From: Eledone cirrhosa
Lineage: Eukaryota
DNA: 64,000 nucleotides
Reading direction: 5' to 3'
NCBI GenBank assembly: GCA_964016885.1
Contig: OZ024744.1
Coordinates: forward strand, 83,204,001-83,268,000
Below, in pieces: positions 51,658 to 57,029 of this stretch. The position numbers were made by a program, and so were the translations under genes. Every line of letters starts with the position of its first letter. Position 1 is the first letter of the stretch. The notes under the pieces are model-generated. The model had not been told where the DNA came from. It searched no databases and worked only from the letters and a program-made list of their open reading frames with translations.

Positions 51658-51860
51658 ATAGAAACGAGTAGGACCCCGACGGCTGAGCTCAAGCCGTTTC
51701 GACGGCTAATTCTGGACTGAGCCCAGAATTAGCCGTCGAAACGGCTTCAGCTCAGCCGTCGGGGTCCTACTCGCTCCTATTACCCACTCTACTACCCTAA
51801 GTATTGAGTACTTTGGTGCGTTATGGTCCACCTGGTTCCTTACCACATTTCCTTCGTTAT
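51658..51860 (+). mobile_element. Fold-back family P
   Basis: Arms 51658-51715 and 51723-51780; HHR 3' half GAAAC-GGCT-tcagctc-AGCC-GTC-GGGGTCC; 80-nt tail. Confidence 0.88.
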
Positions 51861-52822
51861 ATATATATGTAGATAAATCTACCAAAATATAAGGTAGTGT
51901 CCAATCCGTATGAAGAACTCAATGTAATCCATTATTTCTGAAGACAGCATATATATGTGTAGGTATGTATATTCGCTCTGATAGTTTGTAAAATTTTTAC
52001 ATAGATCTATATGATATACATACCAACACACACATATATATCCTAGAAACGATCGTAAAATAATGAATTTTTTAATATAAGGAACTGTTTTTTTGTTTTT
52101 ATTCATTGTTTTTATTAATTTATATATATATATATATATATATATATATATATATATATATATATATATATATAGAGAGAGAGAGAGAGAGAGAGAGAGA
52201 GAGGGGGGAGAGAGAGACATAGATAGGTAGATAGATTCATAGATAGATAGATAGATAGATATGTAGATAGATAGATAGACAGATAAAGAATATGGAGATC
52301 AGAGTAGTAGATGAGAAGGCGTGGCGTTTTCATGGATAGTTTTCACGATTATTTCGGCACCAGCAGTCATTATAGTTTAATTAAAATACCAGTAATGCCT
52401 TGTACCAAATGTAGAAACAATTATTACAGTAAGTAACTTAACTTGAAAGTAACTTAACAGTGAAACATGAGACACAATCATGTACAGAGACACACAAGCC
52501 ACCGTCAATACAAACATATGGTAAAATGTGTGTGTGTGTGAATAATAAAACGACAGGCTGCTCATAGTTTTGTTTTAGAATTTATATTCGATATACTATA
52601 AACAATAGCTAAAAATACACAATTACACACGCATATATAATATATATTTGATGTCACAAAAAATATATATACACACTTCAACAGCATTCGAATCAAAATG
52701 TGTATACATTTTGGGGGACGCTTTGAATATAAATATATATATAAGTGTGTGTGTGTGGAAGTGTATATACATATGTATATGTGTGTGTACGTGTGCATGT
52801 GTGTATAAGCGTATATATATAT

Positions 52823-52998
52823 ATATGAAGGGAGTCAGGACCCCGACTGTTAAGCTCCGGCCGTTTCGCTAGTTAGATTCGAACTCGAAACGGCCGGAGC
52901 TCAGCTGTCGAGGTCCTGACTCTTTTCATATTACCCACTCTACTATTGAGCATTGTGGTTCGTTATGGTCCACCTGGAATCTTACCACATCCTTCTTA
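52823..52998 (+). mobile_element. Fold-back family P, diverged subfamily
   Basis: Hairpin 52823-52931 plus homologous tail TACCCACTCTACTA...TTACCACATCCTTC. Confidence 0.8.
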
Positions 52999-53171
52999 CA
53001 TATATATATATATATACCACAGCCTCCTTATATATATATATATATATATATATATAATATATGTATATATATATATATATATATATATATATATATATAT
53101 ATATATATAAGGAGGATGTGGTATATATATATATATAAAATATATACCACATCCTCCTTATATATATATAG

Positions 53172-53291
53172 TGAAGGCGTGTGGCTGAGTGGTTAGAGTA
53201 TTGGATTCACAATCGTGAGGTTGTGAGTTCGATTCCTGAACCAGGCGATGCGTTATGTCCTTGAGCAAGACACTTTATTTCACGTTGCTCC
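53172..53291 (+). mobile_element. tRNA-derived SINE family S2 (CORE-like)
   Basis: A box TGGCTGAGTGG, B box GAGTTCGATTCC, then TGTCCTTGAGCAAGACACTT. Confidence 0.8.
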
Positions 53292-53504
53292 TTCTACCTG
53301 GAGTTGCGACCGATAGATAGTATTAGCAATTGGAAAGACCAACGGAAACATAGTTTCCTCGGTCCGATTTGACTAAAAAAAAAAAAAAAGTCGATCGACC
53401 AGAATATATATATATGTATGTATGTATATATATATGTAGATTGTAAAACAAGTGATACAAATAAAAGATGCATAGGGTTGGACGTAAGGTTACATCATTT
53501 AAAT

Positions 53505-53684
53505 AATTGTTTCTACTTTTGGCACAAGGCCAGCAATTATCCCAGTGCATTACTGGTACTTTATTTTATCGACCCCCGTAAGGCTGAAATGCAAAGTTAA
53601 CCTCGGCGGGATTTGAACTCAGAACGTAAAGGTCAATAACTCTATGCTGCAAGCATGGCGTCCGACCCTCTACCGATAGTGCCA
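53505..53684 (-). mobile_element. SINE family S1
   Basis: S1 sequence, reverse strand; another partial copy at 53897-54003. Confidence 0.85.
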
Positions 53685-54617
53685 ATAATGAACGTACGTG
53701 AATTTCATTGTCGGCGCGGAGACTAAAGATATGTGTTCGAAGTAGATTCTGCTATATATTTACGCCCGTAAAGCAAAGCTGAACACCAAATATGCTGTAA
53801 AATATGTTGACCGTATGGAGCATGTTGGTTGAATTGTTTGCACCAAGTACATCTCAATTTCCAACTACAATTAGTAAATATATAAATTTATATATATAAT
53901 TGTTTCTAATTTTGGTACAAGGCAAGCAATTAACCAGTACATTACTGGTACTTTATTTTATCGCCCCGCAAGGATTAAAGGCAAAGTTAACCTCGACGGG
54001 ATATAAATTTATATATATAATGATATATATATATATATGATTACATAAATATGTGTATATGTATGTACGTCTGATTCATTATGAATATAAACATATATAT
54101 ATATATATATATATATATATATATATATATATATATATATATATATATATATATATATATAAATATATATATATATATTTATTTATTTATATTTATATAC
54201 ATAATGAATCAGACGCACATACATATATGTATATATTAATATATATACACACATATGTATATAAATATGAACGAATATATACATGTGCGTGTGTGCGTGT
54301 ATATCTGTGTCTATATGTATATATATATACATTATATACATATCTATATATGAACGAGCTTATAAATTACTATGACAGATTTGTTGTTAATATACATATT
54401 CATATACATAATACATACAAACCTATATACATAATACATACATAAATACGTATATATATATATATATAAATATATATATATATATATATATATATATATA
54501 TATATATATATATATATATATTATAAATACAAATATAATTCCAGCGAGATCGTATTTCGGCGATATATATATATATATATATATATATATATATATATAT
54601 ATATATATATATATATA

Positions 54618-54735
54618 TTTACGTTATTCCGGGTTGAAACGGAGGTAACCACAGTAAGTAAGGTACTCAATACATAGCAGAGTATAACAGTTTTAATATA
54701 GATTAGATTCTACAGGACTAGAACTGTTTCATTCA
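54618..54735 (-). mobile_element. Family K element (HHR 3' half plus tail)
   Basis: Minus strand GAATGAAAC-AGTTCTAGTCCT-GTA-GAA...TGTATTGAGTACCTTACTTACTGTGG; related to 63347, 36459-36524 and 42671. Confidence 0.7.
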
Positions 54736-55077
54736 TATATATATATATATGGTGGTGTTAATTAGTAAACTCATACCCATATTTATATACATATATAAAT
54801 ATATCTATGCATGTTTGTATATACGAATATATATATGCATATAAGTATAAGTATATATGTGTATATATATATATATATATATATATATATATATATATAT
54901 ATATACATATGTATATATGTATATATGAATATATATATATATATGCATATAAGTATATATATATATATATATATATATATATATATATATCTAGATATAG
55001 TATATACAGACTCACATATACGAGCACACACAGACATATATATATGCATGTATATATATAATTATATATACAAATCA

Positions 55078-55198
55078 AAAGATTCAAGTCTCCGACGGCT
55101 CCGCTCCGGAGCGGAGCCGTCGGGGACTTGAACTTTATCACCCTATGTGATACACATTTGCAAAAACCCATAAACTCAACCATACATCCTTCCATTCA
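55078..55198 (+). mobile_element. Fold-back element related to family P
   Basis: Near-perfect palindrome 55083-55132 containing AGCCGTC-GGGGAC, plus ~60-nt tail. Confidence 0.7.
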
Positions 55199-55675
55199 TA
55201 TATATATACATGTACTTATTTTTTTTAAACAAAACAATTTTTCAAGAACCCCTTAAAATTTGGTTTTCATTTTGTCTTGATTACGACCGTTGTCTTGCCC
55301 ACTCTATTAATATACATACATACATATATATGTATATATATATATGTATATATATATATGTATATATATATATATATATATGTATGTATATATATATATA
55401 TATATATGTATATATATATGTATATATATATATAAATAAATATATATATATACATATATATATATATATATATATATATATATATATATATATATATATA
55501 TATATATATATATATATATATATATATATATATATATATATATATATATGTGTGTGTATACATATATACATATATATATATATATATCTGCGTGTGTGTG
55601 TGCATGCGTGTGTGTATGTATATATATACATATATATATATGTGTGTATATATATATACATATTATATATATATA

Positions 55676-55881
55676 TAACAAAGGAAATGTGGTAAGGAAC
55701 CACATGGACCATAACGCACCAAAGTACTCAATACTTAGGGTAGTAGATTGGGTAATAGGAACAAGTAGGACCCCGACGGCTGAGCTCAACCCGTTTCGGC
55801 GGCTAATTCTGGAATATATTTAGTCCAGAATTAGCCGTCGAAACGGCTTAAGCTCAGCCGTCGGGGTCCTACTTGTTCCTA
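55676..55881 (-). mobile_element. Fold-back family P
   Basis: Reverse-oriented copy of 51658-51860 with a different hairpin tip. Confidence 0.88.
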
Positions 55882-56839
55882 TATATATATATATATATAA
55901 ATATATATAATATATATATATATATATAAATATATATATATATAATGAAAAATTTGAACAGGGACAGAACAGAGAGGCAGTACAATAAATGTTTATTAAA
56001 TTCACGCTCAGGAGAGTGGGAGGGGGGGTAGGGATAGATACATAGATAGATATATAAATATAGACGTGCGTGTGTGTGGTTTTACGAAATATCTACGCAC
56101 GCAATGTATAGAATATGTATAGAATATGAGGTTCTATATATAAATTAAAATTCAGTAGTAATGAATATGCATTCATATGTAAGCAAATGTGTATTGCATA
56201 TAAGTATTAATCACGTCATTGCGTATTTAAATTCAACTAAATAAACTATATAAGGAATAGAAATATATATACACACGCGCGTATATAAACTTTCCTTTGC
56301 ATACACTCACACACATACTCATAAATATGTGTATATATATATATATATATACATATATATATATATATATATATTTATATATATACATATATGTGTGTGT
56401 GCATATATATATGTATATATATATATATATATATATATATATATATATATATATATATATATATATTTATATGTATATATATATATATATATATATATAT
56501 ATATATATATATATATATTTATATATATATATATATGTGTGTGTGTGCATATATATATGTATATATGTATGTATATATATATATATATATATATATATAT
56601 ATATATATATATATATATATATATATATATATGTATATATATATATATATATATATATATTTATTAAAATATCGAAATTTGTTATTAATACTATATATAT
56701 ATATATATATATATATATATATATATATATATATATATATATATATATATATATATATATATAAAGTGTATACTTTGATACATATGAAGAGTATACATTT
56801 ACTAAAACCTGATGAACGCTTATATTTATATATATATAT

Positions 56840-57029
56840 ATAGGAAAATATTCAACCCCGACGGCATAGCTCAAACCGTTTCGATGGCTATATCTGAAAT
56901 AGCCGTCGAACGGCTTCAGCTCTGCCGTCGGGGTTAAATATTTTCCTATTATCCACTCTACTACCCTAAGTATTGAGTACTCTTGTGCGTTATAGTCTAT
57001 CTGGTTCCTTACCCCACTTCCTTCGTTAT
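56840..57029 (+). mobile_element. Fold-back family P
   Basis: Hairpin 56840-56949 plus the same tail. Confidence 0.85.

What the first reader, a model, noticed from the sequence alone, without database searches (positions are those of the whole stretch)
51658..57029. Family P: five copies with identical outer ends and five different hairpin tips
Copies at 755, 51658, 52823, 55676 and 56840 all start the inverted arm at the CCTAT/CATAT site about 70-80 nt from the 3' end and finish at the same tail. Arm length ranges from 8 to about 58 bp. Substitutions are mirrored in both arms of each copy (GAGTAGGA, ATATTCAA, GAGTCAGGA), so each hairpin was made or homogenised per insertion. The arms hold a clean helix III and GTC site. 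Tail-only ~15-nt pieces at 53015-53160 also alternate in orientation. Four copies cluster within 5.4 kb.
Basis: partly seen in the sequence, partly recalled or inferred. Interest (0 to 1): 0.72.

Follow-up and report, generated by a model that had tools for sequence, protein, structure and literature searches.

The report
Two-ended Penelope retrotransposon hairpin stubs
These five hairpins are stub-sized insertions of a Penelope-like jumping gene with more than 20,000 copies in this animal genome, and each was likely made by copying the element's RNA from two fixed start points, one for each side of a cut TA repeat, back toward the RNA's predicted capped start, which would explain the mirror-image ends and one-sided tail of this class.

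Summary
The five copies are real. They are 5'-truncated insertions of a Hydra-clade Penelope-like element (PLE), a known kind. Long copies carry an RT plus GIY-YIG ORF with the Hydra motifs. At least 21,701 exact tail matches exist in the genome.

The fixed outer ends are two sites 80 nt apart, each a few bases before a look-alike bulged hairpin. An insertion usually pairs one end of each type.

Tips are not random. 53 of 92 arms stop 134-148 nt from the 3' end, at an initiator-like A. A non-templated G often precedes that A (G 5,420, A 890; control 402 vs 1,091). This suggests run-off at a capped RNA start.

Mirrored substitutions are mostly subfamily markers, not homogenisation. The hammerhead 5' half exists, but with A at core position 8. 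The 14-nt pieces are a local rearrangement.

Against a one-RNA model, 0 of 28 ORF-joined copies stop at that site. The scan reached a similar model earlier on other DNA of this genome.

The parts
755..850 (+). Shortest stub: 8-bp inverted arm (755-762), direct arm (763-770, site B at 770), 80-nt tail to site A (850), in (TA)n
776..801 (+). Bulged hairpin 1 in the tail, starting 5 nt after site B
51658..51718 (-). Inverted arm of copy 51658, 61 nt, from site B back to the predicted RNA start (-140)
51719..51719 (+). Single extra G between the arms, not in any long copy at this position; candidate copy of the RNA cap
   Evidence: interpretation inferred
51720..51780 (+). Direct arm, 61 nt: 3' half of the hammerhead (stem II 3' strand, GAAA, helix III, GTC, stem I 3' strand), ending at site B
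51781..51860 (+). 80-nt tail ending at site A; in tandem copies it runs on into the 5' UTR and ORF
51786..51811 (+). Bulged hairpin 1 of copy 51658
52823..52999 (+). Stub of an older, more diverged subfamily: palindrome 52823-52931, tail of about 68 nt with a 9-nt deletion through hairpin 1
53016..53159 (.). Three 14-nt tail-end pieces (+,-,+) in (TA)n; local duplication/inversion, not a dispersed class
55675..55882 (-). Stub on the minus strand: tail 55675-55754, palindrome 55755-55882; same subfamily group as 755 and 51658
56840..57029 (+). Stub of a second subfamily: palindrome 56840-56949 (arms 57/55 nt), 80-nt tail to 57029, hairpin 1 at 56955-56980

Best explanation
The five copies are short insertions of a Hydra-clade Penelope-like retrotransposon, each likely made from two separately primed cDNAs that start at two fixed RNA sites 80 nt apart and that likely run back toward the RNA's predicted capped 5' end before being joined head to head. 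Shown: the family, its ORF, the (TA)n target, the two fixed ends (A = 0, B = -80), the A-plus-B pairing, the pile-up of tips at -134 to -148, the extra G before -140, and a look-alike bulged hairpin 3-5 nt after each end. Inferred: the GIY-YIG domain nicks both strands of (TA)n. Each nick primes reverse transcription internally, using 3 nt (TAT) shared with the target, at a site probably set by one hairpin. A promoter inside the pseudo-LTR starts the RNA mainly at -140, within hammerhead loop II. The cDNA from A (up to 140 nt) and the cDNA from B (up to 61 nt) are joined by short microhomology or a few added bases, which makes each tip different. Both arms usually come from RNA of the same master, so subfamily markers are mirrored. 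Four of the five window copies fit this; copy 755 stopped after 8 nt. ORF-bearing copies need a different template that extends upstream of -140 (read-through or circular RNA).
For: ORF with RT (YRDDG) and C-terminal GIY-YIG joined directly to the same tail in L061 and L063. 186 homologs among 6,565 candidates. Hydra motifs as listed in PMC8557442 section 11. Ends: among 92 tail-bearing copies, the adjacent inverted arm starts at B in 55, at A in 2, elsewhere in 11, and is absent in 24. Among 20 loci chosen on arm sequence, 13 are A+B, 2 B+B, 0 A+A and 5 unclassified. Tips: direct arms end at -134..-148 in 53 of 92, shorter in 24, longer in 15; modes are -140 and -144. Base 5' of the -140 A genome-wide: G 5,420, A 890, C/T (templated) 21,641. 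Control at -138: G 402, A 1,091. None of the 50 matched long arms has G there. Untemplated G at full-length 5' ends is attributed to the cap for L1/SVA (PMC3287187, passages). D. virilis Penelope has an internal TATA-less promoter (PMC2377424, passages). A Poseidon PLE nicks and extends both strands, starts at two internal RNA sites that bound the tail, and is predicted to be a dimer (PMC11167929). Inverted arm longer than direct arm in 15 of 52 copies, and in L061 it holds the whole ORF. Junctions from ORF sequence back to about -141 occur (L215, L123; joints), as expected of a physical RNA end.
Against: No RNA evidence: the start site and cap are inferred from DNA only. 0 of 28 mappable ORF-joined 5' pseudo-LTRs end at -134..-148 (Fisher p 5e-9 against 53/92; 4 of the 28 are one duplicated locus), so one mRNA cannot explain all copies. 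In about 8 of 21 sampled G contexts the G could come from the partner arm (counted by eye). G before -144 is weak (3 of 20). The hairpins show no covariation within this family, because hairpin 1 is nearly invariant and the sample was selected on it; their role rests on position and on the likeness of the two. Whether one RNA or two serve the two ends is not settled: L158 and L172 have arms that look like different subfamilies. The 92 copies all come from the first 27 Mb of one contig and were selected for an exact tail word.
Confidence: 0.72

Rival explanations
1. Fold-back: one cDNA primed at A snaps back at its 3' end and copies itself until B, making the hairpin.
For: Many tips have overlapping or palindromic microhomology, and 11 of 52 copies have equal arms. 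It would mirror every template variant.
Against: The inverted arm holds sequence that the direct arm lacks in 15 of 52 copies (for example L160, 61 vs 19 nt) and a whole ORF in L061. It gives no reason for a stop at B. B+B and A+A insertions occur.
Confidence: 0.08
2. Same PLE insertions, but the -140 pile-up comes from later collapse of long DNA palindromes or from an RT stall, not from an RNA end.
For: Long perfect palindromes are unstable (own knowledge). The tips lie near stem II. No RNA data are at hand.
Against: Arms with no partner or a short partner also stop at -139..-144 (L157, L169, L186, L210, L160, L189). Neither collapse nor stalling predicts a position-specific extra G. The site lies in loop II, beyond the strand where RT would enter the stem.
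Confidence: 0.12
3. The stubs are an independent non-autonomous family (MITE-like or retrozyme-like) copied from short hairpin masters, with arms homogenised after insertion.
For: Stubs far outnumber long copies (10 of 92 extend more than 135 nt beyond B). One junction recurs. 5 private mirrored changes.
Against: Tips differ copy by copy. The recurrent junction appears in several subfamilies and with either arm complete. 62 unmirrored changes show that the arms drift apart. The sequence is continuous with ORF-bearing copies. The tail is one-sided, unlike TIR elements.
Confidence: 0.05
4. Hammerhead self-cleavage defines the tips.
For: Three of 92 direct arms end at -98, next to the cut site at -100. 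The older core matches an active U3-A8 variant (PMC3088659, passage).
Against: Most tips lie 35-45 nt upstream of the cut site. The young subfamily has a C3/A8 mismatch. Cleavage was dispensable in vitro for a Poseidon PLE.
Confidence: 0.03

Closest known systems
Hydra clade of C-terminal EN+ Penelope-like elements, e.g. Hydra-1_Obim (Craig et al. 2021, PMC8557442; abstract, passages, sections 11, 12, 15, supplement parts 1-2 of 59 and search hits)
   Same: Single ORF with RT then GIY-YIG; RW[K/R], DKT, CxCx5C, CxxC and CxH motifs; no CCHH seen; (TA)n target; type I hammerhead at the 3' end; partial tandems and inverted truncated copy. The ORF is plainly homologous to Hydra-1_Obim by eye.
   Different: A different family: its hammerhead does not match the one tabulated for Hydra-1_Obim. 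The unit is about 3.5 kb against generally under 3 kb. Clear pseudo-LTRs, where Hydra-1_Obim is listed with none. Core has A at position 8 and a 5-bp helix III. Tail is 80 nt against the 30-40 given for PLEs.
Poseidon PAc of Anolis (Frangieh et al. 2024, PMC11167929; main text, parts 1-2 of 4)
   Same: Two internal RT start sites bound the tail; both strands cut and extended; AT-rich target; hammerhead upstream of the start sites.
   Different: Different clade. There the sites lie inside the ORF and are described as not homologous to the cut DNA. Here they lie in the 5' UTR and share TAT with the target. That text does not describe cap-G run-off stubs or A-plus-B pairing.
Penelope of Drosophila virilis (Schostak et al. 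2008, PMC2377424; passages)
   Same: Internal TATA-less promoter; partial tandem with inverted repeats of variable size; short repeat at the ORF start and 3' end.
   Different: 34-bp repeat and an intron near the start. No clear match to its downstream promoter element was seen here (by eye).
L1 twin priming (recalled; not read here)
   Same: Two target nicks each prime a cDNA; head-to-head joining by microhomology.
   Different: In L1 the inverted piece copies a different, upstream part of the RNA. Here both cDNAs copy the same segment, giving a palindrome.
MITEs / palindromic TA-inserting DNA elements (recalled)
   Same: Short, palindromic, high copy, flanked by TA.
   Different: One-sided tail, variable tips, continuity with an RT ORF, no inherited TIR pair.

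Membership tests
EN+ Penelope-like elements | Single ORF with RT and GIY-YIG endonuclease | tested here: met
   L063 ORF in two pieces either side of one in-frame stop (228 and 557 aa). YRDDG and VIY..YIG by inspection; 186 homologs. Pfam gave no significant hit, so domain names rest on motifs and on the published alignment.
EN+ Penelope-like elements | Pseudo-LTRs from partial tandem copies | tested here: met
   L063 has the same 3' segment and tail before and after the ORF; 28 of 30 ORF-joined loci mapped.
EN+ Penelope-like elements | Inverted 5'-truncated copy plus one-sided tail | tested here: met
   55 of 92 copies have an adjacent inverted arm starting at B. Tail is 80 nt, longer than the 30-40 in PMC8557442.
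Hydra clade | C-terminal EN with RWK-type and DKT motifs in the N-terminal part | tested here: met
   RWR and SDKT in L063 2583-3269; EN at the C-terminus against the list.
Hydra clade | CxCx5C linker; CxxC and CxH around the conserved E and N; no CCHH | tested here: met
   CxCx5C intact in L061, L062, L065 (last Cys changed in L063); CNLC and CKH present. Absence of CCHH judged by eye.
Hydra clade | Insertion into (TA)n | tested here: met
   All five window copies and most sampled ends abut (TA)n.
Hydra clade | Canonical hammerhead ribozyme | tested here: inconclusive
   Stems I-III, GAAA and GTC are present and stem II differs in both strands in the third subfamily (L147, by eye). The core has A8: U3-A8 in older subfamilies, C3/A8 mismatch in 30 of 53 long arms (set enriched for the young subfamily). 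Predicted folding is not better than shuffles (z -1.1). Activity untested.
Hydra clade | Phylogenetic placement with Hydra RTs | not tested
   No tree was built; the published reference sequences were seen only as supplement text.
MITE / TIR DNA transposon | Inherited TIR pair with fixed interior | tested here: not met
   Arms cluster within copies, tips vary, one-sided tail, RT ORF.
Retrozyme | Non-coding tandem units bounded by hammerhead cut sites | tested here: not met
   Stubs end at A, B and about -140, not at the cut site; the family has an ORF. One short tandem (L215) runs -143 to +112.

The most novel reading that the evidence does not exclude
This PLE runs on two RNA pools. Its own capped promoter transcript carries both RT start sites in its leader, so it can only make hairpin stubs. 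The coding sequence is propagated only from an RNA with no 5' end there, possibly a circle made when the hammerhead half in the 3' UTR pairs with the half in the leader. A dimeric RT/endonuclease is docked by two tandem bulged hairpins, one per DNA strand, so tail length is simply the spacing of the hairpins.
Probability: 0.3. Interest if true: 0.72.

Novelty: new member of a known kind. Interest (0 to 1): 0.45.

Why it matters
How PLEs form their inverted ends and one-sided tail is an open question (PMC8557442 section 15). Tens of thousands of stubs give a statistical record of it: two fixed start sites used one per end, a sharp stop with an extra G, and candidate RNA signals that can be mutated in an existing type of in vitro assay. 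The result that ORF-bearing copies do not stop at that site makes the proposed circular-template model (PMC4209133, passage) testable. In practice such stubs look like TA-inserting MITEs and could be misannotated. If transcribed, they would be ready-made double-stranded RNA; a palindromic repeat is heavily A-to-I edited in frog, and octopus has unusually many such structures (PMC5625713, passages). The element class, its target and its architecture are already published.

Tried and rejected
Rfam scan of 51400-57300: only sub-threshold microsatellite and miRNA noise among the 150 of 205 rows shown; no hammerhead family listed. Pfam and PDB sequence searches of the ORF: nothing significant.

An apparent systematic C/T mismatch between arms at -86 was a selection artefact of my query. 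In copies not selected on it the base is T in nearly all arms. Rejected as editing or a two-template signal.

RNA evidence: no RNA holder listed. Three coded runs of one sample, kind not on record, were laid as contigs. Depth steps up about 20- to 40-fold near -143 and loose ends fall at A and B, but contig depth is not copy number and the sample may not be independent.

Hammerhead cut site as the tip: 3 of 92, not convincing. G before -144: 3 of 20, weak. Downstream promoter element: no clear match by eye. The first mirroring count was inflated by register shifts and was redone on 37 copies, with 10 dropped. The 14-nt pieces as a dispersed class: rejected. A literature search for C3U/G8A returned nothing; the point was then taken from PMC3088659. 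A sequence look-up among earlier findings returned nothing. No structure, complex or tree was run.
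Full report
Observation. The five copies are present as described. Each is a palindrome followed by a one-sided tail, set in (TA)n. I number positions from the last base of the tail (site A = 0). The outer end of the inverted arm corresponds to -80 (site B) and the hammerhead GTC cut site to -100. The window lies on contig C28 of a 3.0-Gb genome. The host is probably a cephalopod; this is an inference from the likeness to Hydra-1_Obim and one Argonauta-named homolog and was not tested.

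Family size and clustering. A 33-nt tail word has 21,701 exact matches, against 0 for the reversed control. Only 2 of the 5 window copies match that word exactly, so the family is larger. Four copies in 5.4 kb is more than a uniform spread gives (0.04 exact matches expected), but clustering is general: 8 of 99 gaps on C1 are under 6 kb against 1.9 expected. The four copies fall in three subfamilies with different tips, so they are separate insertions into a TA-rich patch (42 TA runs in 51600-57100).

The parent element. Walking upstream from long copies gave L063: pseudo-LTR and tail, 5' UTR, ORF with one in-frame stop, 1.1-kb 3' UTR, pseudo-LTR and tail, then (TA)n. The repeat unit is 3,534 nt. 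The tail is the start of the 5' UTR. The protein has RWR, DKT, YRDDG, CxCx5C, a GIY-YIG-like VIY..YIG, CNLC and CKH. These are the features listed for the Hydra clade, which inserts into (TA)n (PMC8557442 section 11). Pfam and PDB gave no significant hit, but 186 homologs were found. Hydra-1_Obim is listed in that paper's supplement, with a different hammerhead. No tree was built.

Fixed outer ends. I sampled 92 tail-bearing copies from 90 loci taken from the first 100 listed matches, all in the first 27 Mb of C1. The adjacent inverted arm starts at B in 55, at A in 2, elsewhere in 11, and is absent in 24. Among 20 loci chosen on arm sequence alone, 13 pair a tail end with a B end, 2 are B+B, none A+A and 5 were unclassified. 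Both ends finish in TAT, which is shared with the target. This fits the in vitro result for a Poseidon PLE, which cuts and extends both strands and starts at two internal RNA sites that bound the tail (PMC11167929). Following a lead from earlier scan notes, I folded the sequence after each site. Each is followed by a 4+4-bp hairpin with a 2-nt 3' bulge and the same five following bases, 5 nt after B and 3 nt after A. A generic pattern for it hit only three places in the window, all family copies. Within the family there is no covariation to test it, and a longer fold pairs the two hairpins with each other instead. Its role is inferred.

Two cDNAs, not a fold-back. The inverted arm is longer than the direct arm in 15 of 52 copies, shorter in 26 and equal in 11. 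In L061 the inverted arm holds the whole ORF. Junctions range from overlaps of up to 27 nt to inserts of up to 17 nt, which explains why every tip differs.

Mirroring. In 37 copies with both arms in register (10 dropped for register shifts or short arms, 45 with no matching arm), arms differ by 1.7 per 42 nt within a copy and by 4.2-4.5 between copies. There are 73 mirrored changes against a permutation mean of 19 and maximum of 38. But 68 of the 73 are shared subfamily markers, 5 are private, and 62 changes are in one arm only. So both arms come from the same template lineage and then drift; there is little sign of homogenisation. L158 and L172 have arms that resemble different subfamilies, a hint that two RNAs can be used.

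The tips mark a site. Direct arms end at -134 to -148 in 53 of 92 copies, earlier in 24 and later in 15, with modes at -140 and -144. The -140 base is the A of a T[C/T]AGT motif kept across subfamilies; it resembles the animal initiator consensus, which I recall and did not test. Genome-wide, the base before that A is G in 5,420 arms, A in 890 and the templated C or T in 21,641. At a control position three bases on, G is 402 and A 1,091. None of 50 matched long arms has G there. About 8 of 21 sampled G contexts are ambiguous, since the G could belong to the partner arm (by eye). An untemplated G at full-length 5' ends is attributed to copying of the cap in L1 and SVA (PMC3287187), and D. virilis Penelope has an internal promoter (PMC2377424). 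Window copy 51658 is a clean case: two 61-nt arms with one G between them. Arms without a partner stop at the same place, and rare joins from ORF sequence back to about -141 exist (L215, L123). These argue against later palindrome collapse. No RNA run was available to test the start site.

A result against the simple model. Of 30 loci where the tail runs into the ORF, 28 could be mapped and none begins at -134 to -148. They spread from -55 to -1348 (p 5e-9; four are one duplicated locus). ORF-bearing cDNAs therefore come from RNA that extends past the predicted start: read-through transcripts, or the circles proposed for PLEs (PMC4209133, passage). This is unexplained by my data.

Hammerhead. 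The 5' half is present in long copies. The core reads CTGAGAA in the young subfamily and TTGANAA in older ones, with position 7 free to vary. U3-A8 is a natural, active covariant of C3-G8 (PMC3088659). C3 with A8 is a mismatch, so the youngest subfamily may have an inactive ribozyme (inference). Stubs hold only the 3' half and could not cleave alone.

The 14-nt pieces. They alternate in orientation, share one variant end, and the flanked piece matches only twice in the genome, both here. A local duplication with inversion inside the self-complementary (TA)n run is the likely cause (inference).

Novelty. Class, target, inverted arm and tail are published. Searches for the run-off, cap-G or A-plus-B reading listed no paper whose listing states it, and the papers I opened did not; the library lacks most subscription journals. 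Earlier AI notes in this scan reached nearly the same model on other DNA of this genome. I had written down the run-off reading before seeing them and took the twin-hairpin lead from them; they are not independent support. Verdict: a new family of a known clade, with a useful and testable record of mechanism. Interest 0.45.

Noticed in passing
window 51933-52064 (+): Complete type I hammerhead of another family (canonical core, minimal helix III, 101-nt stem II region), 70 nt after copy 51658. L010 holds a two-armed copy of it joined to a family P end.
   Followed up: partly
window 13156-13200 (+) and 63348-63410 (+): Two more canonical type I hammerhead motifs from the motif scan, the second next to (TA)n.
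   Followed up: no
window 55064-55200 (+): Another hairpin-plus-tail element ending in (TA)n, with a helix III and GTC-like arm that resembles family P; probably a stub of a related family.
   Followed up: no
window 54620-54730: Short element between TA runs with a stretch like the family P tail hairpin on the minus strand (16 of 18 match); a similar element sits in L009.
   Followed up: no
window 1461-6827 (-): Apparently intact two-ORF LINE: 634-aa ORF with a zinc knuckle and 1,152-aa APE endonuclease plus RT ORF; 3' fragments at 7299-7880 and 7982-8569 beside (GATA)n.
   Followed up: partly
window 29121-30689 (-): A second, different PLE with Pfam RT and GIY-YIG hits in two frames split by a stop; not the Hydra type by its motifs.
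   Followed up: partly
window 25945-26436 (-): Fragment resembling a Hydra-type GIY-YIG C-terminus by eye; no Pfam hit.
   Followed up: no
L215 (G000:C1:27008000-27010500): Tandem of a 256-nt unit running from -143 to +112; suggests template jumps from the RNA 5' end or a small circle.
   Followed up: partly
L252-L255 (G000:C20:16.25-16.31 Mb): Four near-identical ORF-joined copies with the same junction, 15-30 kb apart; a segmental tandem duplication.
   Followed up: no
window 53170-53290, 53500-53680, 53900-54000: Other dispersed repeats, one with a tRNA-like SINE head by eye; related sequence flanks several fetched loci.
   Followed up: no
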